From positions 401,594-465,593 of the forward strand of contig NW_019217818.1 of assembly GCF_002571385.2 (NCBI RefSeq): DNA of 64,000 bases. The letters run 5' to 3'. The notes under the pieces were generated by a model that saw only the letters and a list, made by a program, of their open reading frames with translations, had not been told where the DNA came from and ran no database searches. Positions 22,351-51,320 of this stretch are shown in pieces (the first letter of the stretch is position 1; each line of letters begins with the position of its first letter). Origin of the DNA: Stylophora pistillata. Its lineage: Eukaryota. The translations under genes were made by a program, and so were the position numbers.

Positions 22351-25300
22351 CTATTTCTTGTGGCTGTGATCCAGTTGATGAGAGATACCAAGTTGTCGTG
22401 AAATATGAATCAATCCTTCCATTACACTATCCACCAGTCTGAAAGACAGAAAGAAGGCTATAGTAAGAAAATTGGAATGTTTCACACCAATGCCTTGAGT
22501 ATTATGGTTTTACGGGTAAGCACCAAGTGAAAAATAAAAGACAATTTTAGTTGTTGAAAATTGTCATTTTAAAATTATACTTTTTCTGAGGTAGACAAAC
22601 AAGGTCAGAAACAAGTCATAAGTCAGAGAGAGAAGGATGGTTAACCATTCCACTCCCAGAGATTAACATGTAACTTCTGCTTGTAATATCCATACATTGT
22701 CCAGCAAACAGGTAATGAGAATATTCAAACATATCAGGCAAAAGTTTCTATCTTGATCTAACACTAAATTCTCATGACTGGTTTAAAAGGAAATGTGTAG
22801 CAGCTAGAACGGAGAATTAACAATCAGACCTTGGGAGTTAAAGGGCTCACTCAAGATGTGCAAGATTGATGCAGACTGGTTATGGCAGACTGGACATAAT
22901 TTTCCGAGGTCAAACAAAATGGCTACTTACATGTAAATCTTTAATTAAATTTAGTTATCTACTGATGTGACCCACCTGTCTATAGGTTTGATAATAAAGG
23001 GTATTGCAGTGAGTCCCACAATAGTGGTCATCCACATTTGGGTACTAGGAGGCACTCCTCTCGCATATCTGTTAAGTGTGAACCTAGATGCTGCACAAAT
23101 TCTGTTGATTGTAAACCCTGGGATAATCACTGAAGCCAACCCCTGCCATATGGCTGCCTCTACCATGGTTTCAACAGCTTTGCGTTTCTTGAGGTAGCTG
23201 GACAGATGGGTGCTTTCCTGGTAGCATCGCCTCCCTTTGTCAATGGAGTCTGCCAGGCAGTAGGTGGAGGCAACTCCATAGCTACCGAGGTACATTAACC
23301 GAGGGATGTGGGTACGGAATGCCTCACCAAATTCATTGGCATATCCTGACGGTTATTAAGTACATATTTTAATCAAAATGTCTTTAAGTTTTAAGCAATG
23401 ATTATTAAAGGTTAAGGTCATATTTGGTTTATAAGTAGTCTTGCTGGTCAGTAGTCTTAATCATTTTCACCCTAACATTAGCATGAAAAGGAGAGCTCTT
23501 TGATCACCAACAAATCAGACCATTTTTATTATAATTATTGATACTTTTTTAACTTTTTTCTCTTTTTCACAGATAGTATATTAAGTCTTCTTTAAGAAGT
23601 AAACATTGTAAATTAGTAATGCAAGTCCACATCAGCCGATGGCTGCCAGTTTTTTAACCTGTNNNNNNNNNNNNNNNNNNNNNNNNNNNNNNNNNNNNNN
23701 NNNNNNNNNNNNNNNNNNNNNNNNNNNNNNNNNNNNNNNNNNNNNNNNNNNNNNNNNNNNNNNNNNNNNNNNNNNNNNNNNNNNNNNNNNNNNNTGTAGG
23801 TATATATGTATGTAGCTAGGTAGGTATGTAGGTATGTATGTATGTAGGTATGTATTTATATTTTCCACACTGTTCTCTTTCCATTTCCTATGATATTGAC
23901 AATAGGTGTCTTAAATTGGTGATCATTTCCTTTATTCTCATGACCTTAACATTTGATTAGAGGGTTATGCTGTAAGGAGAAATTAGATGCCAGTCACTCT
24001 TAGGGGTATATAGTTTACCCTTCAATCTAATTTTCCTGACAATATCACCCCTGAATCAACTGTTAAGCTGACAAGAATAAAGGAAATGATCACCAACTAA
24101 AGAAGCTCTTGATTGTTTCACAACTTCTCCTTGTCAGTACCTTAGGAAATGTATAAAGAACATTATGGAGAATATGGACACTGATGTTAGGGTGTAAAGG
24201 GTTAAGATTGATATATTCCTACTGAATAATATTAAAAGAAAATTTTACACCTGGTTAAACTTGGAGCTTTCAATAAAATTATTAGTCTTAGAGCTAATAA
24301 CATCACCTTAGGAAGGGATAGCCTGGGTTGCAAACACAAGGTGGGAAGGGGAAGGAGAGTGCAAGAAGAATGATAGGCTTAGAGATGTATGGCTAACAAA
24401 AATTAATGTCTGCAGAGGATGGCTGTAATATCTCTGGAACCCTGTGACAACTTTTTTTTCACCAAATTTTCAAGGAACACACATAATTTACAGAATGATA
24501 CAAATAAACAGTGATTGTGAAAATAAAGTTTTAAGCTAAATTCAACTTACAATGAGGAAATTATGAAAAAAAGACACTTTTCTTTTATTTCAATTTCAAA
24601 ATAAACCTGCTCTGAAAAATCTTTAAAAACAAAAATTAAATTTAAACCACACCTCAGACACTCAAAAGTGAAAACAAGCCTAGCATATCTTTTAATACAA
24701 GTCAAACATGTTTCGCATATAAAATTTTAGGGCTAGCAAGCTGAATTCACCCATTTTCCTTTCAAAACTGACTTTATTTAAGTCAACACAATGTAGAGTA
24801 ATGTTACATTGACAACAGAAAAACTTGTTTAGTTGAGCCAGGTTTAACAGAGTAAAATTCAGCAACAGAAAACAGAAAAACTAAATTTTACATAAGGTTC
24901 AGGTAATCATTAAATTGCATTTTCATTGAAATTTGAAAGCTGACAAACATCGTCTTAGAATCTTCTATCAAGAAAACAATTTCTAACCACATTTAACAAA
25001 AGCTATTTTAGCTTTAGTGTGGATGGAGTACAAATACAGTGGAAAATCAATTCAATCTTCTTCTATGATCTTCAAGAGGTGACCATTGACTAACAAAATG
25101 CATTTGACTTCTAATAACCACCATCTCAAGTGGCTGCCTCTGGTATTTTCATAAGGCCAATCCTATTTTTGCAGCCTAATGAGGTCAAAAGCTACCATTA
25201 TGGTAATGGAAGGTGAACTTGTCACTTATCAAAATAAAATCTACCTAATTCACTCAATACACAAGAATTAACCCTTGTGTAATTTCATGCTCTAGTTAGC

Positions 25301-27843
25301 TCACCCATTGGTTGACAAGGAACAAGTTACTGGTTCACTGATTTTGCAGGTATTTAAAGAAAAGTCCTGTCACATTGAGCCATTAGATAAACCAAATGCC
25401 ATTAATTAAAAGTAAACATTCACTGAGAACAAAATTCACAAGATTCAAAGCTTAGTTCTGGGCTACAGGTAAAAAAAAAAAAAAAAAAAAACAACAACAA
25501 CAGTCAGGGTAGATATCCAAAATGAAACAGATTGAGTGATAGCTGTCAGTTTCAGAAAACAGTAGAATTTAAAAGGTGAAAAACCTTGTTTTACAAACAA
25601 TAAATTTTTAATCAAAGGACACTATTAATTATTAATAGTTCAATGAACCACATTTTTCTGTCTTTTGGTAAAAGCTCATACTTAGCATTCTGTTTGCATG
25701 TTAATGAAAGGGAACAGTCTACAGATAAAAATGAACACCTGCTGAAAGGTTGTTCCAAACACTGGACTTGTATTTAAGTACAAGCCCTTGAAACCCAAGA
25801 TAGACAAACTGTTTTGACAGGAGGAGAGCTCCTGCTGTGGTTCATGATCACAGACACAGAAAACCAGTGAACAACACAGTAAACCAGTCTTACTTGATAA
25901 CACAGGAATGATAACAAAATTTTAGCTCTGGGAAGCTGCCAGAGTTAGCTGTTTTCTTAGTGTCCAATTGAAACAACTTCTTCTAGGTCAAAAGTTGGAA
26001 CCAAAATGGCTTACATTTTTTAACATGAAGGTATGTGAAGTTGTTTTACTTTGTTTTCCACAAGTTTCACTCTGGAATCAGAACTAGTACACTTATACAG
26101 TTGGTTAACTTGCATGCAATTTATTTACATGGAGATTCCATCCTTCACTGCTTCTAAGTAGAAAAAGTTGTCATCCATGACTGGACGAGAGGAAAGAGAC
26201 AAAGCATGAAAACTCCCTTAAAACGCTCTGCTACACAAAGATAACTGTATTCACCAGCAAAAGTCAACCATCATAATCCTATTAATATCCTTTGATCTCA
26301 CTAAAATAAGAAGTTACAGCTCTGCTTTAAACAGAAATAAAAGAAAGTTATGCAACCATGTAAGAATCCAGTAGAAAAGGGTTGATCCACAAAGTCTAGG
26401 AGTATAATGAATCCCAAGGTTTACTTTTCTTTTCAAGTGTAGAAGTTGTGGAAATCTTAAGTTCTCACATGCAAAAAAAAAAATCACTTTACCTATATTG
26501 CTTCTCTAAACAGAGAGCTTTTAAAGAATCCAGGCGTCCTATGTTTCAAACTGGTACCTTGCTTAAACCGTAATCAGTTTAATTCACACACACTGATACA
26601 CCATATCCCTAAAAGCATTGGCTGCAGGTGTGTTTGCTTGCTACTCATTTCTGAAGCACAAGCTACTTCAAGTAGGCAAAGCAGTCAAACTGAATACACA
26701 GTTTATAACTCACAATAAGGCAAAAAAGATCTCTCCAAAGACAATATACAAAAGCAGATGTCTAAACAAGGAACAGGTTTTATTTCTTGCCAATATTAAT
26801 CTGAAGTAACTTTCACAAGAAATAGAAAAAGGTTATGGGTCACAACTCATAAGACTTCACCACTACCTAGGAGCTTATCCTGAATAAGGATATACATGTA
26901 GCAAGTTCACATCCAATAAAGACTGCCCCTTGCATTTTGAAACCAGAGTTGTCAGGTTCAAGAAATGTAGCACTAGTAAAGATTGCCTATTCTCAATTTT
27001 GACTTCATTTGTATAGATCTGAAATTAGTCTACAACACTGACCAAAAGATCTCTTTTTTCATGGAGAGAGTAAAACATCAAATCCTTGAAAATTTTCTTA
27101 GGACAAAGGGAAAAAGAAAAGAGTTTTGGTCTAATGAGATTACCTTCTACATAATCTATCAACTGACCCTTCAGGACCCTATCAAACATGTAAACTGCAG
27201 TTGTCCTTGTCCTTTTCTGTATCTCGTATTACTATACTTAAAAACACACCAAGTCTTCTGACCTTCAAAACGTTACAGGGATAAGTTACCCATCTCACAG
27301 AAAATAAGATTTTGCACAGGGTTTGCAAAAGTTTGTTTGTGTCCAATGACCACACTTATACACATTGGTACCCACACTTTTGACTTACAACACATTATGA
27401 GGATAAGTGATCCTTCCAAGGGAAAATGAGATTTTGCAAAGGGTTCTAAACAGTTTGTTGGAATATTGGTATTTTGTTGAAGAAATCATGCATGCAAAGC
27501 ATGCTAACCACCACGTTACATGAAGGCAAAGTTTTAAATTAGATTAGAGACTCCCAAAAATAGATCACTGTAATGTACAGATCTCGCTGTGTTAGAACCT
27601 GCAAAGATTTCTGGACACTGTCTGCAGTCATCCCGATAAGATCAAGCGACTTCTCATGTAAACCCAACTCCAGAAGTGTGTGTCCAGCTGTGTCTATACT
27701 GTGTCCAAATTATCAGAGTATGAGTATGTGAACCGCTCAAAATAAACTATGAACTTACCTAGATATCTTAACGCTGTATCCCTGAAAATATCAACGTCAG
27801 CTACCGTGATATCGGAAACATCTTGCTGCTTTTCCACCATCAT
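22351..27843 (-). CDS. MTFP1: Mitochondrial fission process protein 1 (MTP18), 3 exons
   Basis: Exons 27759-27843, 22976-23345, 22351-22438; DIFRDTALRYLGYANEFGEAFR, IWQGLASVIIPGFTINRIC, AIPFIIKPIDRLVD. Confidence 0.95.
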
Positions 27844-28165: not shown

Positions 28166-31100
28166 ATGGAGACTCATTTCGAGGTTAGTCTTTCTACTAC
28201 TTCATCTCAACCTTCGAATTTCGAATTTTTAGGCATTTTCTGGAAAAAAAAAAAAGAGCTCCAGACAGATTGGAAGTGAAACATCCCATTTTGAAAATAG
28301 AGGGATGTTTTTCTCCAAAAAGTTTATGGAATCCGAAGTATCATAAATTTAATCGTGCAAAGTTGTGGCATGTTTCCAGACTTGACTTGCATACTTTCCT
28401 CGCACCAAACGCAAGTTTGCAAATTTTTTCCGTGAAAATTGCGTGGGACATAGCTCTCTCTTTTGGCTTGTCTGCAGTAAGAAAAGTCTTTCCAAGTAGT
28501 ACTTTTAATCAGATCTATCTAAAGAAGGAATTTGATTTTCTGCATACTTCGATCCGTTTATTCACCAAACACTGCAAAAATACGGAACTATTTTTAGAAA
28601 TGACTAGTGAATAACTAGTGAATGAATTTGGCCAAACAAATACCTTGAAAATTCGAACATTTCTTTTTTCTACCAGAAAGTAGGGAGATGGTGAGCTTGT
28701 AATAGATTAGCATTCCAGTTAAATAAAGAAAAGGTGTTTGGTCATAATAACGTTTCAAATGGATCACCACATTCCTTGAATGACTTAGGTCATCCTGCAC
28801 TGCTGAACAGCATATACATACTGTGCCCTTGTACACCCGTCTCACTTCCCATAAAGTCCCTGTTAGATTCTAATAAGGTATACCAGTGTCCCACCCTCGG
28901 AAGAAAATTAATTGGAAACTAATTCCTTCCTAAAACAGAGTTTGATATCTTGTACTACTAAAATAATAGGGTCAAGAATTAAAAGCTTTCACACCATCTC
29001 CATACCCAAGGTAAGAATTCATGACTCCCTGCTCCCACCCCCACTGCAAAGAATCAAAATATATTGAATGACTATTACATGATAAGCCTTCCTCTCTATC
29101 AGGCCCCTCCCCTCTCTCTTTCTCTCTCTCACACTCTTTCCCCTAAAGGAGTCCCTTTTCTAGAACATCTGGTGTTTGATAAGCTCCCCTCCTATAAATT
29201 CTTCCTCCTCTTCTCTGAAATTCTAAAATAGAAGCTTCATAGCTATAAGTTTGGGCAGTCTATAAAAGAGTTCATTGTTTGTTTCCAACAAAAGTAATGC
29301 CCTAAAAAAAAAACAAACAAACAAACAAACCACGAACTACCAGCACATATTAGCCTTTAAATATGTAAATAACTAGACTGTAATGACTTATCACAATTAC
29401 TGGTAGACCCTGTAGTTTACATAATGTTTGGGCTAAGGTCTTTTTATAGATTCTCTCCTGTAGCTGCTCAATATTTCCTGTCAAATAAGTTATGAGAATT
29501 TGGTGTTTGATCAAGATAACAAGTTTTACCTGATAAGTTTGAGTATTCTCATTACTCATTGACTTGATAATGTATGGAGATTACAGGAGAATTTAAATTT
29601 TAATCATTCTGTCGATAAAAGGGTTATTATAAAGTAAGCTCCCCTCTCTAAAAAGCCTTCCATCTGGAGAACCTGAAAATTAACAAGGCCTTTAGGGTGC
29701 TTATTAAAGCATCTATGGCTAAAAATTTAGCATAAATATTTAACCCAAAATTTATATTCTGTACTTTAATATATAAACATTTTAATTTCAGAATGGGAAC
29801 AACAAGAAGGAAGAGACAATAACACACGATACTATTCAAAATAACGAGCAATCACCTGAGGATAACACAAAATGGAGAGGAGACTCTGGTGAAACTTCAA
29901 ATGGCTGTAGAAAAATATTAACAACAAGCAGGGTTACCAATGCTGTTGCCTTCCACATTCCCACAGGGAAACCAGTTTGTAGGCCACCACCAAAGCGTTT
30001 TTGTGACCAAACCACAGAAAGAGAAAACATAAGCCTTGAAAGGCTCACAGAGAAACAAAGAATGGCTGAAAGACGAAAGAGAGTAAGTTGACTATTAAAT
30101 AACATTGCTATGTTAAGATATGGGTTTGATTCAATGGATTCATTACAGACTTAAGGCTTGTGGATATGCATGTCTTTTAACAAACATCAGTTTTTACTTG
30201 TTCTGTTAAAAATATTTAATTTCTTAATTTGGGTATGTGGAATATTTCAATACGGACACATTTGAATCTGTCAAATGTTCTTTAAATCAATTAATCAAGT
30301 AGTTTGAGATGCACCGGCTCTGACGAAGGGCTAACACTTGAAATGCCAGCTGTTAAACTCTTTATGGTGGCCAAAGTTTTACCTTATCAACTCAGTTGAT
30401 TAAAGTAAATTACTTTAGTTTGAGATGCAGTATAATAAATGAGATCTAACCAATTACAGTCCATGCACTTCTCTGAGCTGTTTTTTGTCAATAATTGTTG
30501 CTCATGTAGTGTGAAGATCTGACTGACTGACTGACAGTAATTACATTACAAAACCTAAACAGAAGTCATCATCTATTGTATTTATTTGATAAAGGGCCCA
30601 CCTCTGATAAGATCCCACTCCCCCACCCCTCCCCCCCAAAAAAACCTGAAATGCAGAACAGGAGTACTGACTATTTCTTTGAATCACAATTCACTGTCTA
30701 TTATTGGTACATCTTTATGTTTAGTTACTAGGTACTACATGCTGAAAATAGACATGAAAATTTCATAAGTGCTCACTTTGAATAACCACCAACTCTCAAG
30801 GTTAAAAAATTTGAAAAGGGCCTGGCTATGAGTGGTACTTTACCAAATTAATTTAGAACAAAGCTGGCAAAGTCATGCAATCAAATTCATTATACATAAA
30901 GCGTGCTCAAAATCCGGATAGTGCTCGCTGATAGCGTCAGCAAATCCGACTTCGCCAGAATTTTTTTTTTTCGCGCAAGTGGCCATTGCTAGCACGGGGA
31001 AAAATAATATATATCACGACAATAATGGATACAAACAGAAACTCGGCCTACTAGTCCGAAAACGAAGACAATGTTTGGACCTTTTCCCTTGGGCTAGAGT

Positions 31101-32733
31101 TCTTAAATGAGGCAGAAAAAGAAAAAAACAAAGGAAAAGGAGACTCGGCATCAGCGCCATCACGATTCGCTTCAACTGATACTGTTGTTCATTTTTCACG
31201 TCGGATTTGATGCACAATTCCACTGGCTATGTTCTAAAACAATTGGTTCATGCTTTCAGCTGTGCACTATCGAGTTATGGAGCACGTGGGAAGTTTGGAG
31301 AGCACTCAAGAAGCTAGACTTGCCCTCGGCTATCACCTCGGGCAACTCTTACACTTCTTTCGTGTTCTCCAAACTTCCCGCGTGCTCCATAACTCGATAG
31401 TGCACGCTAAAGCATGAACCAATTGTTAAACAGTATGTCCAGGAGCTGGCTACCTGTACCCACATTGTCTTAACACCACTGCATGACCACAGTTCTTTTT
31501 AGGATATCTATTACAATGACTATCACTCTCCATGACTGACTTTTACCCTTCTGGTTTATACCATTTACTGCAAACCTAATTTTATATTCATCTTTACAGC
31601 AACAAGTGGAACAGAGACTTAAAAGAATCCATGATCGACAAGAAGCTGCTCGAAAGCTTGCACACAATGTTGAACTTCTCCTACAGCAGAAGTCTCTGGT
31701 AGATGCTGGGAGAGGCCCCAGTCATGACACACCCAAAATGACATCTTCTGAACTTCTTGCTACAGCCTGTCATGTTGTAAAAGATTTTAGAACTTTGACA
31801 TCTCAAATGACAAAAGATCTTGCTGTAGATGACAAAAACAATAACTTATCAAAAGATCATCCACCACTGGTCAAATCCAAAGATCAGAAGGAAAAACAAG
31901 CATGTTTGAAAACTTCATCTGTTGATGACACCAACAAGAGCATTGCATTTACTGTCGGATTTGATGAAGAAAGGCAGCCTCTATCTCCAGTGCCCAAAGT
32001 TTTACAGAAGACACACAGGAAGGACAGAAGTAAACTCACTGCTCAAGAACTAGATGAAAAGCAGAGAAGGGCCATGGAAAGACGGAATGTAAGCCAATGC
32101 ACTTAACCCTTTTACTCCCAAGATGTGTTCATTAATTCTTCCCCCTAGCTGCTACAGTACATTTCTTAATAAATTATGTATTGAGAAAAATTATGAAATT
32201 GGTGTTAAATCGAGATAACAACCTCCACACTTGAATATTCCCATTACGTTTTCTGGATGATGTATGGATATTACAGGGAAAAGTTACATGTCAATCAATT
32301 CTGGTGGTTAAAGGGTTAAAGAAATGTTAAGAAAGCATACTAGCACCTCCCTGTTGGGATAAAAGTCAGCTCTGCTATATGCAAAGAATGACTCAAAACA
32401 TTGTGTAGGAATTAAGAGATGTCTAAATCTTGAAAATCAAAACTTAAAATTTATTTCCTTCACTTCCAGAAAAGACAAGAGGAAAGAGTCAAGAGGGTTG
32501 TAGCTAACCGTGAAGCTCTGTTCAAGTTGGCCTCTGACCTGGAGACATTCATGATATGGAACAATGCTGAAGGAAATGACTTAAGGACATGTAATGATGG
32601 AGAACAAACGCATCAGGCAGCTCAGTTAGCAAGTGAAATTGCTGATAGTTTTGATAGATTGAGTCAAAGGTATTCACGAGATTTGAAGCAGGCTGAGGGT
32701 TTTCCAAGTGGTTTGTGGGGAATTAAGCAATAA
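28166..32733 (+). CDS. Uncharacterised ~353-aa protein with two tandem stathmin-like modules, 4 exons
   Basis: Exons 28166-28183 (METHFE, least certain), 29792-30082, 31600-32088, 32470-32733; all phase 0 GT-AG and open; motifs AVAFHIP..PPPKRF..SLERLTEKQRMAERRK and SIAFTVG..PVPKVL..TAQELDEKQRRAMERR. Confidence 0.75.
30314..30415 (+). mobile_element. 102-bp solo Penelope pLTR insertion with decayed hammerhead
   Basis: 14-bp TSD TAGTTTGAGATGCA (30300-30313 and 30416-30429); CTGACGA-A-GGGCTAACACTT-GAAAT-GCC. Confidence 0.85.
30890..31427. mobile_element. Crypton/Eulor-like element with 190-bp terminal hairpin (31238-31427)
   Basis: AACAATTGGTTCATGCTTT...AAAGCATGAACCAATTGTT palindrome, loop CTCGGCTATCACCTCGGG; relative at 56723-56911. 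Confidence 0.7.
32103..32319. mobile_element. piggyBac-like MITE (~215 bp); representative of ~14 copies in the window
   Basis: TTAA|CCCTTT...AAAGGG|TTAA. Related copies near 527-690, 14262-14470, 16989-17100, 21245-22015, 22640-22845, 23870-24205 (two), 29440-29627, 40258-40470, 41462-41665, 43236-43435, 57585-57865, 63200-63392. Confidence 0.8.
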
Positions 32734-34535
32734 TTAATTAGTCTCTGATCATGAGTGGACTGAAAAGGTTTCTGTAAATTGATTTTTGCTACGGGGTTGT
32801 CAGATTTTGTAATTGTGTGAATGACTTCAGACCAAATTGCACTTAACTCAGTTCAATTACAAATAATTATATTATATTCTGCTTAACAACTAAGATCACT
32901 AAGATTTTAGGATTGAGTTTTGACTGAGGTCAAATTAACTGACCTTGTAATATTCTAAGACAAAACAAAAGTGTGTAGTGAGTGTGCAGTTAAAATGTTA
33001 TTTCCACATGTTTTCTAAAAGTTTCATGTATGCAAAAATGTTACTGTGAAACTCAAACAACAGTAAACCACAGAAACATTTAAGTAATGTTTATTATTGT
33101 GGAGACTGTGTTGCTTAATTATCTCTCTTGGTGTCTAGCTCACTTCAGGATTGAGTTTTTGACACTAGTCAAATTAACCAAGCTAATTTTGTTGAAAAAC
33201 AAGAGAAGTGAGTAAAGAAACAAGTGAGTAGTGAGTATTTACTATAAAAGTTTCAGTCCTACAAGCATGCAGGAATGTTCAATTTATTTTACATTACATT
33301 GTTTAAAATCATGCTTCCTATTGACCATCCAAAGCCTTTTAAGTTTTATTCCTTTCAGGCCTCTGATAGAACTATATATTTACCATCTTATTTACAATGT
33401 ATACAATAGGTGTAAAAATGTGAATACGATCTTGCTAAACGTTGAAGTTTTATACAGTTGAGGATGAGGTACTGCACACTATAGTAATAGGATTTCTTTA
33501 GCCTCTGTGAACTCAAATTAGTATTAATGTTTGATGTACATAACGATCCTCTAAATCCATGCACCAAGGTAAATCACAAGCAACAAAGAACTAGTGTTGA
33601 GAATGACACAATAATTTGATAACTTTAACCTTAATTGGAAGCTTAGTTCTTCATAACTGTATAAAGTACATTGCCCCCTGTAAGTTGAAAATTCCCCCCC
33701 TCTCAAGTCACTTAAGACAAGTGTTGAATTTTTCAAAATAAAAAATCAAAATTTTATTCTCAAATTTGTACTGAAGTTTTCCTTCCAAACCTACATCTGT
33801 ATTAAAAGGAGAAGTATATTCTAGAAATCAAGTAACTTTTGTCACTACCATTCTAAAGAATACCTGAAATTATGGCTTTTGCATTCTGAGACTTTAGAGA
33901 GTGACTAACTCTCCTGACATTCATTTCAAATGTACTAAAAATTCAACTACATCTGTAATTAAAAAAACAACAACAACAACTCAGTAACCTAGCTTAATAA
34001 GCAAATTCCCAAACAGCAGCTGCTCTGGTTATTACCAGAAAAGCATCACTATTTGGGTCAAAAATACTTTCTTCTTCTTCCATTGCTCCTAACTGTTAAA
34101 AGAGTCTACCAAAAGATGAAGTGAAGAACGGAAAGACTTTATTTCATCACAAGTAGATGGCTTGAGTGCTAAGGAAGACTTTTGTTTGCTTCTCTTTCCA
34201 TTCAATGTTGCCTGGTGTAAACAAAATGGTACCTTACTTATTGCAACATTATTTGAAAAGGGAGGTTAATGAGAGGTTAATTACAATATAGTACCTGATT
34301 GGCTCATCTACTATTTTTCATTGTTGGTGTATATGCATGCTCTCTTGGTCATTTCCTTTGTTTGGTCAAACTTGGTATTGAAGAATGTATTTTAATGTCT
34401 ATTTACCTCCCACCTAAATTAGCTTCACTATTTTGTAGGTGGGGATTGTTAGAATGCTACATTGTTAAGATAAAGAAATTTTGTTGTTGTTGTTGCTGAT
34501 TTCCGTTTACAGTGTGCACCTACTATTTTTGCCAC

Positions 34536-37500
34536 TCATTCATTTGTCACTCGATTTTTTAGTTTATCAGGTCCCCATGATTCAAAAAGATTCTCTTCAT
34601 TGCTATCCAGTTCATCGTAAACAGTTGATATAATTCTTTTAACTTTTGGTCGTTTCGCATGTCGCTGTAACTTCTCACCATAGTAACCCAAGCCTCGCTT
34701 ACACTTTGGTAATTGTCCTTCAGCAAAAACAGGTTCTGTTATACCTTTCTGGGATGAACCAAGGCTTCCTCCTTCTCTCCAGCCTTGCTTTCTCAATATT
34801 TGGCTTCCAAATCCTTTTGTATGTTTCTCAAACCCTCCTATTTTATTTAAGTCAATATCATTTCCTTTCCTCCATTGCTTTTCTACTCGCATCTGGAGAA
34901 GATCTCTGGAGTCTTTGTCGCCTCCGCCTGCAAGCAAAAGAATAATTTACTTTTTATAAGCTTTAGAGTGGCCCCTACAGCTTGAAAAAGTTTGGTTGGC
35001 TAAATTTTATGGAGATTATTCTTTTCTTGTTAGTAGCACTGTGACACAAGCATTTCTTACCTGCAAGAGAGTCTCACTCCTTCTGTAAAGTGAGCTAGTG
35101 AGAGGTCTGGTGCTAACAATGCCAGTCAGCTGGCAAACCTCTCCTTGACTCACCTCATATCTTTTGAAAGAGAAATGGTATACTGACCAGTAAAACATTA
35201 GGAAAAGTAGGAATCTTTTATTTCTGTATTAGTTTCAGTAACTCCCCTATGAGAATGGGCTCTCATAAGCGACCAAAGTTATTATAAAAAATAGAGGGTG
35301 GTCGCTTACGAGAGCTTTTAGATCTTTATCAACACATTACATGTAGTAGTGCAGTGTATTGTATTTTTATTAAAGTGTTGACATACGTAGACCAGGCCCT
35401 TTGAGGTGGTGGTGGTTGCTTACAGGAACTGTCACTCACAAGAGCTTTCTATTAGAGAGTTTAAGTGACATTGAAATGTGGGTGGTTGTAGCCAGAGCTG
35501 GTTGCTTACAAGAGTGGTTGCAAGGAGAGCGTGGACTGTATTTTAAGTGGTATCAGTTTTTGAAAGTAAAGTTTGCATCATTGTATTAACAGTCATACCT
35601 GGATTTTCATAAATTTCCATATCTACATCCCAATCATCTGCAGTTTCCTCATCAAAGTCTGCTTCATCTTGTTGTTTCCAGAAGGCTGCATCAGTATAAA
35701 AGACAAGCCCACTTCCACCTTTCTCCCACTTCAGTTCAATATCCTCTTCAAATAATCTCTCTTTAGTGCGTTCTTGACTAGTGACATCATTGTGCAATGA
35801 TTCATGTCTCTCCCATTCCTCGACATCCCTCTCATCATCATCATCATCACCACCACTGACATCAACCACATAAATATCTTTCCTCTCAGAAACATTTTCC
35901 ACATTATCCCGTTCAGAACTTTGCATTTTTGAACTATCAGGAGTTGACAAAGAGCTGTCTTTGAGTGAATCACTTTTCTTTGCATCCCTTCCCAAATGGT
36001 GGTCTTTATCGTTTGGTCCTGAACTCAAAAGAACCCTTCCTTTTTCCAGGCTTGTGTAATTCAGTGGAACATTGCTGTACTTCTTTTTGGACTTTCCCAT
36101 AGAAAAATTAAGATCTAGTTTTTTTATTACATGAGGAGGCAGTTTGCAAGTTCTTATCAACTCCTTAAATACAGACAAGGGTGTTCCAACATTGCCATTG
36201 GGCATCAGAGGAGGAGGATGAAGCTCTATCATTTCCCTGAGGTCATGTTGTGAAAACTCTAAGTTTGTCCTTGGAGAAGGATTCTGTTTTTTGTCTTGTT
36301 TTGTTCTATAAAGGTCTTCTGCAGAACCTAAGAAAAAGAAGGGAAATGCTGAAGTGAGAGAACAAATTCAAAGTGTTCTGCATGAGTTAAGAACTAAAAT
36401 AATTTTATTAATAAGATGCCAGAAAGGTTCAAGTGGGGAGAGGACCTTAATTGAATATACAAATTTATTTGGAGTTGGTGATTCAGTCTTTGTAGGGTGA
36501 CAATTTCATAGCTAAATATTTGACATTGTTTAAATGTTAACATTTCAAACATGAGTACTTGGTCACTGTGCTGTGACAAGTATCATGCAAAGCACATCTC
36601 TTTCAATGTATCTTATTCTCTGAGAAGTTAAGCAACTACTGTATTTCATCTGGCAGACAAAAACCTTCAAATTTTTGTGATTTCCTGATTTCTTTGAACT
36701 GGAAAAGACTGAAGCTTCCTCTAACTTTTAAGATGCAAACAATGACTGTGTTATACACCGAGTGCAAATATGGCGTCCAATTTGAGTTGCCATTGTTCTG
36801 GACTCACTAGCCTCTCATGTGATGTAATAATCCTTTTGTGTTTCCACGTGAAGACGAGGCTAGTGAGTCCAGAACAATGGCAATTCAAAAATGGATGCTA
36901 TATTTGCATTCGGTGTATAGTGTGTCCATTTCATGATTGAAATTGTTGAAGACAGCAAATTTCAATAAGTTGTAATAAGGAGGTCTGATTTTTTCAAGAC
37001 ATCCACGGCTCTGAGTTTTTCAGGGGTCTGGGGTCTGAGACTTTGTGACATCCCTAATGATAAGCCAAAATATCTAGCTATAGATCCAATGTAAAGGTTA
37101 GCCCTGCATGAAAGGCAAGGCTGGCATGATTACATCAAGTAATCCCTCAATGTAATGAAATTAAGGGTTACATTAACACCAACCTTCTCCTTCTTTAACT
37201 CTGATTTTTGATATAAATGCCTTAGAAGGGAAATATTTTCCATTTCGGTCAACCCAGTTCTTGCCATGATAACAATTAATTAGGTCTTGAAGCTTCTCCT
37301 TTAAGATAAATATAACGCAGCACGTGGTCGAGGGCGTCTTGATTTCTTTATCTTCACCATTAGAGCCCGCCCCATGTCTGAACTCAGGCCGATGACGGAA
37401 ATGAAAACACTTGAAACCCTTCGATTCGTCGTTGATGAAGTTAGAAAACATTGCTCGCAAATCAGAAGAGCGAAATTCTTTCGGAATGTTACTAACAATT

Positions 37501-37556
37501 GCATAGCAACCCTCCTCTTCTTTATCAGCCAAATTTTTCTCACGTAAGTCTTCCAT
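34536..37556 (-). CDS. GPATCH3: G-patch domain-containing protein 3, 3 exons, ~497 aa
   Basis: Exons 37184-37556, 35599-36327, 34536-34927; FKCFHFRHRPE, EEWERHESLHNDV..WEKGGSGLVFYTDA, G-patch FEKHTKGFGSQILRKQGWREGGSLG. Confidence 0.95.
36753..36919. mobile_element. Palindromic MITE (~65-bp arms)
   Basis: TATACACCGAGTGCAAATAT...GACTCACTAGCCTC / GAGGCTAGTGAGTC...ATATTTGCATTCGGTGTATA. Confidence 0.75.
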
Positions 37557-37731
37557 AGCTAGAAATTTCGCGACAAAACAGATGTTCAAATTTCGCTGAA
37601 GCGCGCCGCCATCTTGTTTACAGTTACCGAAAAGGGTTATGGGTATTTGTATGTTGGTAGCCTGGCCTGCCCTTAGTTACAAGTAAATAATTATCTAATT
37701 TGTAGCTTCGAACAGTGAAAACAGCAACATA
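37557..37731. promoter_or_regulatory. Bidirectional promoter GPATCH3/MORN3
   Basis: Only 175 bp between divergent ATGs; perfect TISU/YY1 motif CAAGATGGCGGC on the minus strand at 37605-37616. Confidence 0.75.
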
Positions 37732-40700
37732 ATGCCGATCACTAAACAACCTAAGAAAAATGAACCGTTGTGGAAGGAATGGGATTACAAGGCACAGAAG
37801 AAAGGCGTTCATCATACAGTGTATTCCGTGAACGGCGATCGGTACACTGGTGATTGGGACAGAAACCAAAAGAATGGTAAGTGGCCATGGAAGTCTCCTA
37901 CAAATTTGCTCGAGCAGTCTTAAGTAGTCGTATTCGGTAGCTTGATAGTTACCTCTTTAACATTACACACATTGATTGGCTGATGGCAAAAGCATATTAG
38001 CTCAAATTATTATGGTGTTTTATAACATCCTTGCATTTAAGTTTTCGTATGTTCAGCCCAGTAAGTCCCAAACATCCCTAACCACATTTGTATTGCAGTT
38101 AATTGCAACACTTTACAGTTTATTACGAGTTTGAAATACAAATTAAGATAAACAACGTTCGCAGTTAGTCACAGCTAGTCTAGCAAGAGTACAGAAATGC
38201 ATGACCCTAATAGAACTCATAAGTATCTTAGTGAAAAAGGGTCTTAAAACCAGAGTAATTAGTAATTTCTGTCGATTCCAACAAATAAGCCAAAAAAAAA
38301 AAAACATGTGAGTTACTTTACACTTTTAGAAGGAAAGACGCAAAGTCTACGTGCAAATATGTATGACTAGTTGATTACTATATCAACAAACGTTTTGAAT
38401 TAAAAAAAGAGGAAAAAAGAATTTTCAACTTCATTTTGAAAAGGGACGTGTTTGGCAAAGACAGCAAGATCTTCCCCCTCTGCTCCATATCTACATTAAA
38501 AACACTGTTTTGTATTTCAAAAGGAAAAGGAACTATGACATGGAAGAAGTCTGGTGCTATTTATGATGGAGATTGGAAGGATGATCATCGCTGTGGATTT
38601 GGCACATACAGTGTTCCTGAGGGAGGAGGATACAGGAAAGTTTACTCTGGTGGATGGAAAAATGATAAAAGACATGTATGTATTTGTGGCATTTATAGAA
38701 ATGCTCACAGTTACTCTAAACTAGAATCTTGAAAGAGTATGTAAGAAAATGATTTAAAAAATCTGAAGTTTATCCAAGTCTTTCATAATAGGTTTAAGAA
38801 TCCCTATTCCTTTGAGAAGTCTTGTCAAAAAAGAACAATGGTCTGGTTTACAATTATAGTTATAGTGCAAGAACATATGGGGCTATTTGATGAGGGGTGG
38901 GGTAAACACGATTCCTGAACTATTTTCATTAANNNNNNNNNNNNNNNNNNNNNNNNNNNNNNNNNNNNNNNNNNNNNNNNNNNNNNNNNNNNNNNNNNNN
39001 NNNNNNNNNNNNNNNNNNNNNNNNNNNNNNNNNNNNNNNNNNNNNNNNNNNNNNNNNNNNNNNNNNNNNNNNNNNNNNNNNNNNNNNNNNNNNNNNNNNN
39101 NNNNNNNNNNNNNNNNNNNNNNNNNNNNNNNNNNNNNNNNNNNNNNNNNNNNNNNNNNNNNNNNNNNNNNNNNNNNNNNNNNNNNNNNNNNNNNNNNNNN
39201 NNNNNNNNNNNNNNNNNNNNNNNNNNNNNNNNNNNNNNNNNNNNNNNNNNNNNNNNNNNNNNNNNNNNNNNNNNNNNNNNNNNNNNNNNNNNNNNNNNNN
39301 NNNNNNNNNNNNNNNNNNNNNNNNNNNNNNNNNNNNNNNNNNNNNNNNNNNNNNNNNNNNNNNNNNNNNNNNNNNNNNNNNNNNNNNNNNNNNNNNNNNN
39401 NNNNNNNNNNNNNNNNNNNNNNNNNNNNNNNNNNNNNNNNNNNNNNNNNNNNNNNNNNNNNNNNNNNNNNNNNNNNNNNNNNNNNNNNNNNNNNNNNNNN
39501 NNNNNNNNNNNNNNNNNNNNNNNNNNNNNNNNNNNNNNNNNNNNNNNNNNNNNNNNNNNNNNNNNNNNNNNNNNNNNNNNNNNNNNNNNNNNNNNNNNNN
39601 NNNNNNNNNGGGGAAAGAAATCAAAGTAGTCAAAAGAAAAGGTACTAATCGTTATAATTGAATTATTTAGTAGACCAAGGGGTTAATGTGACAGGAATGT
39701 CTACTTTCCCTAGAAGGTTGGCAGAGTTTATCAACTTTGGTCTGGAAATTGTTTTATACCTCCTATAGTATGCTAACTCTAGAAATCTTGGTACTTTAAC
39801 TTACCAACATTAGCACTACTGTCATAGTAAGAAGGTTGCCATTGGAGTTTTCTCAAATTATGTAAAAGAGACATTGTATGTTTATCTGTATACACCTGTT
39901 CACTGATTTATTCTTCCTCTGTAGGGTTATGGAACTAATTTCTACTCATATAATGAATACTATGAGGGGGAATGGTATGCAGACAAACGAAGTGGCTGGG
40001 GAAGAATGTATTTTTCTGATGGTTCAGTCTATGAGGGAGAATGGTACAACAATATGAGAACTGGCGAAGGAATGCTTAGACTTGGTAAGCTTGTTATTTA
40101 TTAGTGACATGTAATTTGCGAACCCACATTGATTGGTAAATAATATGTACTTGTTGACTGAGTGGGAGGGCCAGATGGGAAAATATTTTGCCCAAGGTCA
40201 TGATGTACAGACCGAGCTCAGCAAGGTCTGTGCCATGAACAAGATAAAGATCTTTTCACTTCACCCTTTCACTCCAAGGAGAGACCAACAAGGAATTTCT
40301 CCTTACAATATCCTTACATTTTCAAGCAGAAAAGTAACAAGAAGAAAATATCAATGAGAAGATATTTCTTGATTTAACATTAAATTCTCATAGCTAGAAT
40401 CATAATTAAGTAACATAAGGGGGATGGTACAGAGAATTCATTTTTAGATCTTAAAAGGGAAAGGGTTGACAAGAATGGCTTTCAGTGATCTGAAGAAGTG
40501 CTTCTCAATTACCTGACTCAGAAATCATGCTTTTGTTACATTAAGTAAGTTATGATACTTGTTACTTGTTTGGTAGCAAATGAAAATCGATATGAAGGTC
40601 AATGGAAAGATGACAAAAAACATGGCAAGGGTAAATTCTTCTATCTTGATCGAGGTCAGATGTACACTGGGGTGTGGTGTGACAACATTCCAAAATGTGG

Positions 40701-41806
40701 CACTATGGAAGATTTTGGTCGACATGAGGCTCCAAACCCAACAACGTACCCAATACCTGAGGTTTGTGTCTTGTTCCGAAAGATTAGCATTACTGATATG
40801 AAAACAACAATATCAAGATTTCTTTATAAGTGTAAGATCAAGGTTGCTTATAGATGAATGTTGTAAAGATTCAGATCCCAGACCTTCTAATTTTTTGGTT
40901 GAATGTTCAACCAACTGAGCATTAGAATAAAGGAATGCAGGTCTTAACTACTTCACTTTTTCACAATTTTCCTAGGGAGTATGCCTCCATACCCCCCCCA
41001 GAAGGGTGATACCTGTGACCAGTGGTGGATCCAGACCTTGAGCTAAGGGGGACCCAGTGTTTGTGTGTGTACACCTGCCAGCTTTTCTTCCTTCAATTTT
41101 TTTCACCCATAGTAAGGGAGGCCCAGGCCCTCCCTGCCCCTCCCCTAGATCCACCACTACCTGTGGCATCACAATCAAAGGCTGCTAGGTAAAAAATCTC
41201 ACTCATTGCCAGCACACCAACTTGAGAGCTTTGTTCTTAAAATGCAAAAAATGTTCTGTATACTGTCAAGATCAGCAATGCTAAAGGTGTCGGGTAGAAG
41301 ACAGAGTATCATAAACCCATATAAAAAACTTTGAACTTGGACTTACAAAACATAGGAAAGATGTTACACTATTTTCATGAACATGGGAAAAACATTCATT
41401 CCTGATTTCTGCCTTCAGGAACATAACTTTGTATTGCATTAGTAACACTTATATGTAATTGTTAACCCCTCTGACCCCTAAGAGTGACCAGCATCTAATT
41501 TCTCCTTACAATATCACCCCTGAAGCAAACATTAAGGTCAGGAGAATAAAGGAAATGATCATCAAGTAAACAAGCTCTCATTTGTTTCAAATTTCCCTTT
41601 ACCAGCACTTCAGGAAATGTAGAAAGAACAGTAAGGACAATATGCATACTGATGTCGAGGTGTACCAGTAAAGCATTAATACAAAATAATATTATTTGCA
41701 TAATTTTCCTTTTTTTTTTTTTTTTCAAATACAGTGCAAACTGCAAGATACAAGAGGAGTAATCAAAGATGCAGAAGATACATTCCTTGATGAACAACAA
41801 TCCTAG
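37732..41806 (+). CDS. MORN3: MORN repeat-containing protein 3, 5 exons, ~237 aa
   Basis: Exons 37732-37876, 38524-38675, 39925-40084, 40577-40761, 41735-41806; MP..K.PK..EPLWKEWD.KAQK.G..H.VY.VNGD.Y.G.W N-terminus and multiple YxGxW MORN repeats. Confidence 0.95.
41020..41159. mobile_element. hAT-type MITE
   Basis: TIR CAGTGGTGGATC / GATCCACCACTA; 8-bp TSD CCTGTGAC / CCTGTGGC. Confidence 0.75.
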
Positions 41807-48654: not shown

Positions 48655-50879
48655 CTACTCAATTATCTGAACCCGACCATTTCCTACGTCAACAACAAGT
48701 ATTCTACCATCTCCGAGAATTGCTGTAGAGGATGGTCCATCAAATTGTCCTATTTTTTTACCCTTTGTGCCAAATTTTCCTATAAACTTTCCATTTAGTT
48801 CAAATACCTGAATTCTATCATTCCGTAAGTCAGAGACCATCAGGTGTTCAGCTTTGTTAATTGACAAATAAGTCGGCCCATCGAACTCCCCATCCTGTGT
48901 GCCAAACTTTCTAAATTTGTACAGAAAATGTCCAGATTCGTCGAAAACTTTAATACAGTGTTCCTCATAGTCTGACAATATGAATATTCCTTGTACTGGA
49001 TGCAGTGAGTGGCAGTGGTGAAAGAACCCTCAGAGCCTATGCTACGGAGAAACTGGCCGGTACGAGAAAATATCATAACTTTCTCATTTTCGTCATCAGC
49101 AACAATATAATTTCCGTCACTACCGATAGATAACCCGCAAGGACTGCCGAATTGGTGATCAAGATTTCCCTTTTCACCAAACTTGTTAAGGAATACCCCC
49201 TTTCCACTGAATAGTTGAATTCGGTGATCATCTGAATCTGCTATGAAGATGGTTCCGTCATCGTTATCAATTGCAATTCCTTCAGGCGAGTTTAACTCTC
49301 CCTCTTTACCTCCCTTATACCCAAAAGATCTTAAGTAAGTTCCATCACTACTGAATACCTTTACCCTGTTGGTACGATTGTCAGTGACTACAATTTCATC
49401 GCGTTCGTTTACTGCCACTCACCAGGGTAAAGCAAAATCTTTATTGCCTGAACCAAATTTTCCGAAGGATAACACGGGTCTGAACTGTCTTGGTTTTACT
49501 TCAACTGTAAAGGGACTGTCACGAATGTGCTCTCCATTGACCTTCACGGACACAAGGCATTTTCCGGTTTCTTAAGCAAAATAGCTGATCTTGTAACTTC
49601 CATCTTCGATGTCCTGGACTCGAGTCTCTATTGCACCGTCATGGCTTTCCAGATTTTTGATCTCCACAGTTACATAGTCACGCTTTTCATAACACTGTGC
49701 CGGCTCCTTTAGCGTTTCTTGTTGTCAAAACTATGTTTGCTTCTAGTCCAATGGTTGCTTCACTGATTCCTTTTCCTGAGGCGCTTGACTCAGCTGAACT
49801 AGTAAGAAGAACTTTAACAAAGCCAATTTTGTCAGTCCATGTAAAATCGAACAATCTTTGATTTCTCACAAATCCAAAATCTGCAGTGTTCTGATTGCCA
49901 ATGGGAAGGTAAGCTAGCTCAACTTCAGTGACCCTGAAATATTTCTTCTAGAATTGTGTTTGACTACATAATTTCAGTGCTAATGTTCCTTTGCAGAATT
50001 GCCTCAGTTGCTCCGATTTCTGTTTCAGTTATTTTAACTTGGTTTTCAATCTCACCTCTTTGTATTTTCAGACGCTGCATGGACTCTGCCGCTCTGTTGT
50101 CTAAGTAATCAAAGCTTTCTTGCTTCTGCGCTTCCATGACGGCCATCATGTTGTCCACAAACTGCTGCACGCCTTTCTTTACACTGGCGACATGGTCTTG
50201 AATTTTGGCACAGTCCGAGTCAAGTTAAGCAATTTCTCGCCTCCTCTCCGATGCTGTTTTCTTCTGATTCTCGAGCACTAACTTTGGTTTTAATTTTCGT
50301 TCATTTGCAGCTTCTTCCAAAAGCATCTTGGCGTGACCGTCATGATTAGTGGCAACACACGAATGGCAAATTGGAACACAGCAATCTCTGCAGAAAAACT
50401 CCAATTCCTTACTCTCGCTTCAAAATGTTTGCAAAATCTTGGTCCTTAAAGTCTTTGAGCGCTAGTACACGGTGTTCCTTATTCGCTTTCATTCCATTGT
50501 CAAAACTGATGCAGTTGGCCTTGCACCAGAATGCACAACATTGAAAGCAATAGAAACTCTGGGAGCTCTTCTCGTTGCAATTTCCACACGTAACTCCAAT
50601 GGCATTGCACTCTTTAATGGCCAACGCGTCAAGCAGACTGTTGATGCGAAAGTTAGTTGGAAGATCCTTAAGATTTCCACTACCAGGAACTTGAATCTCC
50701 ATTCGACATTCAGGGCATGCAATGACATCACGGCGGCCACTAGTTCGATGAATCCCGTTCAAACAATTCAAGCAAAAAACATGTAAACATGGCAGCGTTT
50801 TTGGATCAGTGAGTGTGTTTATACACACAGAACAGGAGACCTCTTCATGAAGATTGTTAAGTAAGGTTTTGATATCCAT
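48655..50879 (-). pseudogene. Intronless TRIM-NHL (TRIM71/TRIM2-like) E3 ligase pseudogene
   Basis: MDIKTLL..RING (CSVC..LPCLHVFCLNC..CPEC), B-boxes, coiled coil, filamin-like segment and NHL repeats in order; premature stop at 50409-50411, further stops and several frameshifts. Confidence 0.85.
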
Positions 50880-51320
50880 GACAAGATTCGGAAATTGGGA
50901 AAATTGCACCAGAGAGAAAAGTTAAAAACGAAACCACTCCAAGCCAACTCAAGCGGAAGAGGATCTTAAACTTACTCCTAAAATCTGACCAAAGAGGCAA
51001 CGTTTTGGGTATGCTTTGACTCGTGCCTGACTGCTTAGAGCCTTAGTGACAGGATCTGCATTTCTTAGAAAAGAAAACACATTGTTGGCTGTGTCCTTAA
51101 AGACCGGGCGCGATTCGCGATACTTGCATATTCAGCATTTAACCCAAACACACTTAAGAAGTTGCGTCTAGTTGTCAGCCGACTGTCGCCCGTAAACGGT
51201 CCGTTGGTGTTTTAAGTCTGATTTTATAGAGTGTAAAAATAGATCTTGAGAGATACTTAATTGCGATTCATACGCAACAATTCGCAATTTTCGATCTAAG
51301 TTGAAAGGTAATGCGTAAAC

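What the first reader, a model, noticed from the sequence alone, without database searches (positions are those of the whole stretch)
28166..32733. Uncharacterised protein built from two tandem stathmin-like modules with a duplicated intron position
Seen: module 1 is AVAFHIPTGKPVCRPPPKRF..ISLERLTEKQRMAERRKR|QQVEQRLKRIHDRQEAARKLAHNVE..ACHVVKDFRTLTSQMTKDL. Module 2 is SIAFTVGFDEERQPLSPVPKVL..LTAQELDEKQRRAMERRN|KRQEERVKRVVANREALFKLASDLE..ASEIADSFDRLSQRYSRDL. Both are split by a phase-0 intron at the same place, indicating an internal duplication of ~160 aa. Known: the stathmin-like domain has an AF-x-I beta-hairpin that caps alpha-tubulin, a Pro-rich linker and a SLEEIQKKLEAAEERRK helix. Inference: a tubulin-sequestering protein with two capping hairpins and an extra duplicated helix not explained by stathmin. 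It is not visible as a whole in the ORF track.
Basis: partly seen in the sequence, partly recalled or inferred. Interest (0 to 1): 0.72.

Follow-up and report, generated by a model that had tools for sequence, protein, structure and literature searches.

The report
Two-headed one-repeat stathmin of corals
This is a real, spliced coral gene whose protein carries two copies of a shortened stathmin unit that other marine invertebrates have singly, and each unit likely grabs one tubulin dimer instead of the usual two, though binding is untested.

Summary
Observation confirmed; interpretation mostly right but needs three corrections. RNA reads confirm all three phase-0 introns of a 353-aa coral protein. 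It has two homologous modules 160 aa apart. Each has a stathmin-type cap motif, a proline linker, exactly one 51-residue tubulin-binding-type repeat, a loop, and a second amphipathic helix that is not a repeat and is predicted to fold back.

Corrections: (1) the shared intron is the old stathmin-family intron, also present in two other stathmin genes of this genome. (2) The extra helix is not a coral oddity: the same module is a whole 127-153-aa protein in molluscs, an annelid, a brachiopod, sea urchins and hemichordates, all unnamed or misnamed. (3) One repeat per module points to one tubulin dimer per module; the best PDB sequence match of the family profile is the engineered single-repeat stathmin R1 (E 4.6e-7).

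The window's own protein falls below the Pfam cut-off. Verdict: an apparently undescribed invertebrate stathmin subfamily, duplicated in cnidarians; new variant of a known kind.

The parts
25999..26030 (+). 3' end of an alternative first exon (gives Met-Lys, then exon 2); its 5' start was not determined; lies inside intron 1 of the divergent MTFP1-like gene
   Evidence: Loose read ends before 29790 in 2 runs (4 + 6 reads) match 25999-26027 exactly and are followed by a GT donor; orthologues P0002 and P0003 start MKNG
28166..28183 (+). Coding part of first exon (6 codons)
   Evidence: GT donor, phase 0; 5 joint reads in 2 of 4 runs; P0001 begins with the same residues
29792..30082 (+). Exon 2: variable N-terminal region, cap 1, proline linker, first half of repeat 1
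29942..29962 (+). Cap motif of module 1 (aa 57-63), aligned through the family profile to the second strand of the RB3 N-terminal cap
   Evidence: F invariant in 24 of 25 rows
30029..31698 (+). Repeat of module 1 (aa 86-136), one 51-residue stathmin-type repeat, split by intron 2 (30083-31599)
   Evidence: Repeat score 18.4, reached by 8 of 1000 shuffles; predicted helix 88-138
31600..32088 (+). Exon 3: second half of repeat 1, loop, helix 2 of module 1, variable linker, cap 2, first half of repeat 2 (a phase 0-0 cassette spanning one module period)
31744..31827 (+). Second helix of module 1 (aa 152-179): amphipathic, conserved, not a tubulin-binding repeat, predicted to fold back on the repeat helix
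   Evidence: 17 of 30 columns (aa 150-179) invariant in 8 corals; repeat score -10.9, 261 of 1000 shuffles as high
31828..31932 (+). Variable linker between modules (aa 180-214)
   Evidence: 4 of 35 columns invariant; pLDDT under 50
31939..31959 (+). Cap motif of module 2 (aa 217-223)
32035..32568 (+). Repeat of module 2 (aa 249-299), split by intron 3 (32089-32469) in the same register
   Evidence: Repeat score 17.0, 0 of 1000 shuffles as high; intron register; predicted helix 251-299
32470..32733 (+). Exon 4, coding part: second half of repeat 2, loop, helix 2 of module 2, stop
   Evidence: single copy in the genome search
32596..32694 (+). Second helix of module 2 (aa 309-341)
   Evidence: 17 of 30 columns (aa 312-341) invariant; predicted helix and hairpin
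32734..33500 (+). 3' untranslated region (end not determined)
   Evidence: Same-strand read depth continues to the end of the laid stretch

Best explanation
The gene encodes a soluble stathmin-family protein built from two one-repeat modules, each of which likely caps and holds one alpha/beta-tubulin dimer, so that one chain would tether two separately capped dimers. Shown: the spliced, expressed gene; two homologous modules; in each a cap motif, a proline linker and exactly one 51-residue repeat, then a loop and a conserved amphipathic helix that is not a repeat; and the same module as a free-standing protein in at least five bilaterian phyla. Inferred from stathmin structures: the cap blocks the longitudinal face of alpha-tubulin and the repeat helix lies along one curved dimer. 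Predicted: the second helix folds back antiparallel on the distal part of the repeat helix. Inferred and untested: this hairpin ends the binding track, stiffens the lone repeat and excludes a second head-to-tail dimer, giving 1:1 per module, as in the engineered scaffold R1. Likely role: buffering or sensing of free tubulin. Likely origin: tandem duplication of the single module, in place before sea anemones and stony corals split.
For: Gene. Family: 3 of 9 coral orthologues and 7 of 12 single-module relatives reach the Pfam Stathmin cut-off. The single-module profile aligns to Stathmin-4 chains over cap, linker and first repeat (E 7.9e-7) and to the coral profile over 133 columns including the second helix (probability 99.3%). 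One repeat: 14 of 14 first-repeat stretches score above shuffles in the same register (0-33 of 1000); 0 of 14 following stretches score above zero. The canonical stathmin of this genome shows the 51-residue period five times. The best PDB sequence match of the combined profile is R1 (E 4.6e-7, against 1.5e-4 for the best two-repeat RB3 chain), and also of one coral orthologue's module 1 (R1-type chains, E about 0.1). Intron in the family register. Confident model of the single module (pLDDT 84, helices 48-97 and 111-140); its structural neighbours are generic two-helix hairpins. Background: PMC7491153 (passages: cap on alpha-tubulin; designed domains binding one to four dimers) and PMC11238091 (parts 1-2 of 8: the diverged STMND1 domain still binds tubulin, Kd 0.4-0.6 uM).
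Against: No binding evidence of any kind was obtained here. The window's own exons have no Stathmin hit, P0001 scores 11.7 bits against a cut-off of 24.7, and the coral-only profile does not find stathmin chains in the PDB. The sequence where the first cap strand should lie is poorly conserved, and no strand is predicted in either monomer model (expected without tubulin, so weak). On a 100-degree helical wheel the hydrophobic seam that the second helix would cover points the same way as the N-terminal seam of the repeat (about 1 degree for both; 65 degrees for the middle part), but about 90 degrees away at a coiled-coil pitch, so the hairpin might mask part of the beta-tubulin site. Charged helical repeats match each other easily. 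The full-length model is weak (pLDDT 59.6, pTM 0.27). The rooted tree does not resolve whether modules 1 and 2 are sisters.
Confidence: 0.55

Rival explanations
1. Self-masked, low-affinity tubulin sensor: the fold-back helix covers the beta-tubulin half of the repeat, so the free protein binds weakly (mainly through the cap and the first half of the helix) until a partner or modification opens it. Its job is signalling or localisation, not bulk sequestration.
For: The predicted hairpin spans about residues 62/69-141 of the single module, overlapping the second half of the repeat. The seams are co-facial at 100 degrees per residue. Authors argue for sensing rather than sequestration in STMND1 (PMC11238091, part 2), and a tubulin-binding-null STMN2 still rescues regeneration (PMC12130871, passages). 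Expression in whole-animal RNA is modest: about 100-240 reads laid per 10-13 million records.
Against: The second half of the repeat keeps the L-x-R-I pattern of terminal stathmin repeats almost invariantly (R72 28 of 28, I73 hydrophobic 30 of 30). The seams diverge at a coiled-coil pitch. No regulatory site is conserved in both modules.
Confidence: 0.22
2. Each module still assembles two head-to-tail dimers: on tubulin the second helix unfolds from the hairpin and docks on a second dimer as a degenerate second repeat, giving up to four dimers per chain.
For: The second helix begins about 65 residues after the repeat start, is amphipathic and is as conserved as the repeat. Cooperative two-dimer binding is the family norm (PMC6408325, passages).
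Against: 0 of 14 post-repeat stretches score as a repeat (best case 29 of 1000 shuffles, negative score). Profile comparisons of helix 1 with helix 2 give probability under 1% in 4 of 4 pairs. The helix breaks at a Gly/Pro loop at the 51-residue boundary.
Confidence: 0.11
3. Stathmin-derived but no longer a tubulin binder: the conserved helical hairpins dimerise or bind another partner, and the cap-like motifs are remnants.
For: The window protein is below the Pfam cut-off. Fold searches give only generic hairpins. The hairpin is as conserved as the stathmin-like part.
Against: The cap F, linker P, repeat K and A and the second-half R are invariant or nearly so in the rows that cover them, from cnidarians to deuterostomes. 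These are the positions that align to RB3.
Confidence: 0.12

Closest known systems
Vertebrate stathmins STMN1-4 / RB3 stathmin-like domain (Pfam PF00836)
   Same: Cap motif, proline linker and first repeat align; 51-residue repeat unit; family intron register, tested against this genome's own stathmins.
   Different: One repeat per cap instead of two; a loop and an unrelated amphipathic helix follow; two caps in one chain; no conserved phosphosite set found; no N-terminal lipid motif seen.
Engineered single-repeat scaffold R1 (PDB 4F6R, 6GVM; Mignot et al. 2012, paper not held; known through PMC7491153 and PMC4919923 passages and the PDB names)
   Same: Best PDB sequence match of the family profile (E 4.6e-7): cap plus one repeat whose first half resembles repeat 1 and whose second half resembles a terminal repeat.
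   Different: R1 is artificial and has no fold-back helix; that R1 is the one-dimer design is recalled, not read. This protein is natural, and the cnidarian form has two units.
STMND1 subfamily (PMC11238091)
   Same: Diverged invertebrate-rich stathmin branch; a PP-x-R-L/F linker like part of the STMND1 consensus; same intron register as this genome's STMND1-like gene.
   Different: No MGC lipidation start in either first exon; this genome has a separate STMND1-like gene on C132; the STMND1-like proteins seen here lack the fold-back helix.
Multi-repeat invertebrate stathmins (Drosophila stai; Lachkar et al. 2010, only the title seen in PMC3694009's reference list)
   Same: Raise tubulin capacity by repetition; this genome has such a gene with one cap and five repeats on C82.
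   Different: They repeat the helix under a single cap, giving one curved protofilament-like row. This protein repeats the whole capped unit, which would give separate dimers.
Unnamed single-module proteins of bilaterian invertebrates (for example XP_070542868.1 Ptychodera, XP_013379648.1 Lingula, CAH1780404.1 Owenia, XP_072163728.1 Diadema, XP_033748175.1 Pecten)
   Same: Colinear with module 1 from cap to the end of the second helix (probability 99.3%; 22-33% identity in the 9 checked).
   Different: One module only (127-153 aa); none is characterised; annotated as uncharacterised or misnamed.

Membership tests
Stathmin family (PF00836) | This protein itself reaches the Pfam cut-off (24.7 bits) | tested here: not met
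   0 of 5 window stretches hit; near-identical P0001 scores 11.7 bits, E 0.26
Stathmin family (PF00836) | Orthologues and the family profile match stathmin | tested here: met
   3 of 9 coral orthologues at or over the cut-off and 8 of 9 with a hit; 7 of 12 single-module relatives over it; profile vs Stathmin-4 chains E 7.9e-7
Stathmin family (PF00836) | Cap motif (second strand of the N-terminal hairpin) followed by a proline linker | tested here: met
   Aligns to the RB3 cap and linker; F in 24 of 25 rows, P in 23 of 23; present in both modules
Stathmin family (PF00836) | Complete two-stranded capping hairpin | tested here: inconclusive
   Upstream strand region poorly conserved; no strands in monomer models, which lack tubulin
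Stathmin family (PF00836) | First tubulin-binding-type repeat helix | tested here: met
   14 of 14 stretches above shuffles in one register; helices of 49-51 residues predicted
Canonical two-dimer stathmins (STMN1-4) | Second repeat 51 residues on, in one continuous helix | tested here: not met
   0 of 14 following stretches score above zero; helix broken by a loop
Stathmin family (PF00836) | Phase-0 intron in the middle of the first repeat (shared gene structure) | tested here: met
   Same register in both modules, in the C82 stathmin and in the C132 STMND1-like gene; 42 of 86 motif rows among the hits continue with V there, as expected for frames running into a GT donor (counted by eye; one of the 42 is a spliced protein). 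Vertebrate genes not tested.
Stathmin family (PF00836) | Binds or sequesters soluble tubulin | not testable with these tools
Canonical two-dimer stathmins (STMN1-4) | Conserved regulatory serines | tested here: inconclusive
   An S-P site in the linker of module 2 in 4 of 7 proteins; no conserved basic-x-S/T site; none conserved in the linker of module 1
STMND1 | N-terminal MGC myristoylation/palmitoylation motif | tested here: not met
   Starts are METHFE or MKNG; motif as defined in PMC11238091; a separate gene on C132 has it
STMND1 | Basic nuclear localisation signal inside the domain | tested here: inconclusive
   The PP-x-R-F/L core is shared, but the long basic run of the published consensus is not evident in module 1; function untested

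The most novel reading that the evidence does not exclude
An unrecognised, ancient animal stathmin class that is nature's own one-dimer tubulin trap: a cap plus a single repeat closed off by a fold-back helix that sets 1:1 stoichiometry and may act as a built-in switch. Cnidarians doubled it into a two-headed protein that holds two separately capped dimers on a flexible tether, a geometry unlike the head-to-tail rows of characterised stathmins.
Probability: 0.4. Interest if true: 0.68.

Novelty: new variant of a known kind. Interest (0 to 1): 0.47.

Why it matters
The natural stathmins described in the papers I could read line up two or more tubulin dimers head to tail under one cap; one-dimer versions had to be designed. 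A natural one-repeat class conserved from sea anemones to acorn worms would show another way to use the stathmin surface. It would give a ready small protein (130-150 aa) to test whether stathmins are bulk sequesterers or sensors of free tubulin, which PMC11238091 calls open. It could also supply a 1:1 tubulin chaperone for structural work. One coral genome holds at least three stathmin architectures (five repeats under one cap, lipid-anchored STMND1-like, two capped single repeats), so the family is more modular than the vertebrate members suggest. The weight is limited: binding is inferred, and no vertebrate or model-organism member other than Nematostella was seen among the hits I could name.

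Tried and rejected

Fold searches of both models gave no Foldseek match at E <= 0.001. VIA matches were generic hairpins at Z <= 9.0. They name no family and do not exclude stathmin.

A weak sequence hit of the end of repeat 2 to Mediator subunit Med22 (E 0.03-0.09; Med11/22 also among weak Foldseek rows at E 1.3) was treated as chance helical likeness: it covers one module only and the single-module profile does not recover it.

Second helix as a degenerate repeat: rejected. One search had a one-residue register error in the first template repeat; one search is the corrected run.

Exon-3 skipping, which would give a clean single module: no such joint reached the listing threshold of 3 reads in 4 runs. 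Depth was low, so a minor isoform is not excluded.

Rooting with 7 outgroup fragments left the order of events open: a module 1 + module 2 clade was neither found nor rejected (p-AU 0.205; 8 rows were left out of that tree).

A single-module paralogue in this genome: none found (only the best candidates are scored).

Atlas searches pointed to a 136-member, mostly cnidarian cluster with 14% Stathmin hits; used as a lead only (recognition score low).

Literature: 8 full-text searches (stathmin with coral, cnidarian, tandem, Nematostella, invertebrate groups, repeat terms, CCDC198) listed no paper describing this subfamily; I saw listings of 15-25 papers per search, not all matches, and subscription journals are not covered. 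Lachkar 2010 and Mignot 2012 are not held. A Nematostella apical-organ table lists a stathmin-like gene model 240906 (PMC4300403, passage); I could not tie it to this family because the supplement is unreadable. Six names and accessions were not found in the 4 readable supplements of PMC11238091; its tree's sequence list was not evident among those files, so members of this subfamily may be in that tree unseen.
Full report
1. The gene is real. Four exons (28166-28183, 29792-30082, 31600-32088, 32470-32733) joined at GT..AG phase-0 introns give 353 codons. An independently assembled protein matches at 345 of 353 positions with no gap. Raw RNA reads from 4 runs of 2 studies give the three joints with 5, 39 and 50 reads and strand-specific exon depth; a PolyA contig joins exons 2-3-4. 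Ten further reads in 2 runs bring a different first exon that ends at 26030 and gives Met-Lys before exon 2. The gene lies head to head with an MTFP1/MTP18 gene on the minus strand. Exon 4 has one match in the genome. The nearest named relatives are from stony corals (Oculina, Montipora) and several RNA holders are labelled coral.

2. Two modules. The two cap motifs are 160 residues apart. The modules align with score 92, reached by 0 of 5000 shuffles, and profile against profile at 96% probability, score 55 against at most 19 in 60 shuffles. Most of the signal comes from the first helix (43 against at most 20). The second helices match weakly (16.2 against at most 14.8) and the caps alone not significantly (3 of 60 shuffles as high). 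Among 8 coral proteins the helices are the conserved parts (29 of 53, 17 of 30, 25 of 53, 17 of 30 columns invariant), while the loops (0 of 11, 0 of 12) and the linker between modules (4 of 35) are not.

3. Stathmin descent holds at family level, not for this sequence alone. The window's exons give no Stathmin hit, P0001 scores 11.7 bits, and the coral-only profile finds no stathmin in the PDB. But 8 of 9 coral orthologues hit PF00836 and 3 reach the cut-off. A search of 1.84 billion representatives gave 68 hits, among them two-module proteins of Nematostella and of an unnamed record, and free-standing 127-153-aa single modules. I looked up 20 of the 68 by name: the single modules come from Ptychodera, Saccoglossus, Diadema, Owenia, Lingula, Patella, Haliotis, Pecten, Mytilus, Batillaria and Babylonia, plus Littorina; they are uncharacterised or misnamed. 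Their profile matches coral module 1 over 133 columns, second helix included (99.3%); 7 of 12 pass the Pfam cut-off; and the profile aligns to Stathmin-4 chains over cap, linker and first repeat only (E 7.9e-7). The range is a lower bound; absence from vertebrates or arthropods was not tested.

4. The intron is inherited, not new. This genome has a canonical stathmin on C82 and an STMND1-like gene on C132. Both have a GT donor in phase 0 after the same repeat position as both modules here. Among the search hits, 42 of 86 motif rows continue with V at that place, as frames running into an intron would (counted by eye; one is a spliced protein). The shared intron therefore supports stathmin ancestry. 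The duplication is supported by the modules' shared loop-and-second-helix anatomy. In trees, module 1 and module 2 each form one group across corals, Nematostella and the unnamed record, so the two-module form predates their split. Whether it arose in cnidarians or bilaterians lost a module is unresolved (p-AU 0.205).

5. One repeat per cap. The C82 stathmin has a 51-residue period repeated five times and its best PDB match is the engineered R4. A score matrix from those five repeats and two from an STMND1-like protein finds the first helix in 14 of 14 module stretches in the same register (0-33 of 1000 shuffles as high). It finds nothing in the next 51 residues: 0 of 14 score above zero, best case 29 of 1000. 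The helix ends in a Gly/Pro loop at the 51-residue boundary. The second half of the repeat has the pattern of a terminal stathmin repeat, which is why the engineered single-repeat R1 is the best PDB match of the combined profile (E 4.6e-7 against 1.5e-4 for two-repeat RB3).

6. The extra helix. AlphaFold2 gives helices 88-138, 152-179, 251-299 and 309-341 for the full protein (pLDDT 59.6) and 48-97 and 111-140 for the Ptychodera single module (pLDDT 84.3, 30 sequences). Structural neighbours are generic antiparallel hairpins covering the second half of the repeat and the second helix, so a fold-back is predicted; these matches name no family. The second helix has fully conserved hydrophobic columns at 121, 125, 128 and 132, and the end of the first helix at 83, 87, 90 and 91. 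Whether the hairpin leaves the beta-tubulin site free is open: the seams are co-facial at 100 degrees per residue and about 90 degrees apart at coiled-coil pitch.

7. How it most likely works. From stathmin structures (PMC7491153 and PMC6408325, passages), the cap blocks the longitudinal face of alpha-tubulin and the helix holds curved dimers, and designed domains bind one to four dimers. With one cap and one repeat, each module should hold one dimer. The fold-back helix would end the track and could stiffen the lone repeat. The cnidarian protein would tether two separately capped dimers through a variable 35-residue linker. Shown: gene, modules, homology, single repeat. Predicted: hairpin. 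Inferred: binding, stoichiometry, role. I put this at 0.55; a self-masked sensor at 0.22; two dimers per module at 0.11; no tubulin binding at 0.12.

8. Against what is known. It works like a stathmin, most like R1. It meets the family's cap-motif, linker, first-repeat and intron features, fails the second-repeat feature of STMN1-4, and fails the lipid motif of STMND1 (PMC11238091, parts 1-2 of 8 and passages). That paper's text does not mention tandem domains or cnidarians by the terms searched. Eight literature searches listed no description of this subfamily; two key papers are not held and subscription journals are not covered. Earlier notes of this scan hold nothing like this sequence and one other, unproven stathmin-like repeat protein in a flagellate.

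9. Verdict. A real feature: an apparently undescribed invertebrate stathmin subfamily of one-repeat modules with a fold-back helix, doubled in cnidarians. New variant of a known kind; interest 0.47.

Noticed in passing
L006:1489-2822 (G000 C82, about 226280-227612): Canonical stathmin of this coral with one cap and five 51-residue repeats; best PDB match is the engineered four-dimer scaffold R4. It would be predicted to line up five tubulin dimers.
   Followed up: partly
L004:946-2538, minus strand (G000 C132): STMND1-like gene with an MGC start and the family intron; it appears to end after about one repeat.
   Followed up: partly
L028:403-1791 (G000 C588): A 463-codon basic open frame ending in a stathmin-like cap, linker and half repeat; no Pfam hit; weak match to the single module (E 0.3).
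   Followed up: no
L008:1417-1659 minus (C109) and L007:1375-1779 minus (C228): Two further weak Stathmin profile hits (about 18 bits, below the cut-off) in this genome.
   Followed up: no
P0038 (KAK3752747.1, Actinostola) and P0047/P0085-P0087: Single-module records that look like module 2. P0038 reads as a module-1 cap joined to module-2 helices, which is what skipping exon 3 would give. Gene-model error, isoform or true loss was not decided.
   Followed up: partly
window 22954-27843 (minus) and 25999-26030 (plus): MTFP1/MTP18 gene head to head with this gene (start codons about 320 bases apart); this gene's alternative first exon lies antisense inside its first intron.
   Followed up: partly
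P0060, P0071, P0074: Proteins of or near the DUF4619 family carry a stathmin-like cap, linker and first half repeat after an MGC start; the Atlas also lists clusters with both PF00836 and PF15398. A search for CCDC198 (name for this family recalled) with stathmin found 0 papers.
   Followed up: partly
window 29446-29639, 30804-31579, 32162-32355: High-copy repeats inside the introns (depth up to several thousand times the exon level in a contig run).
   Followed up: no
window 34539-37676, 38367-40854, 43711-44232, 48658-50921, 54035-62542: Neighbouring genes by Pfam: G-patch protein, MORN-repeat protein, Orai, RING/NHL (TRIM-like), and an F-box/LRR protein; ordinary.
   Followed up: no
L025:1438-2472 (G000 C423): A diverged alpha-tubulin whose last 320 codons are free of the introns that split other alpha-tubulin loci of this genome.
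   Followed up: no
L110-L120: Eukaryote-type beta-tubulin genes on short contigs of prokaryotic genome records, most likely contamination.
   Followed up: no
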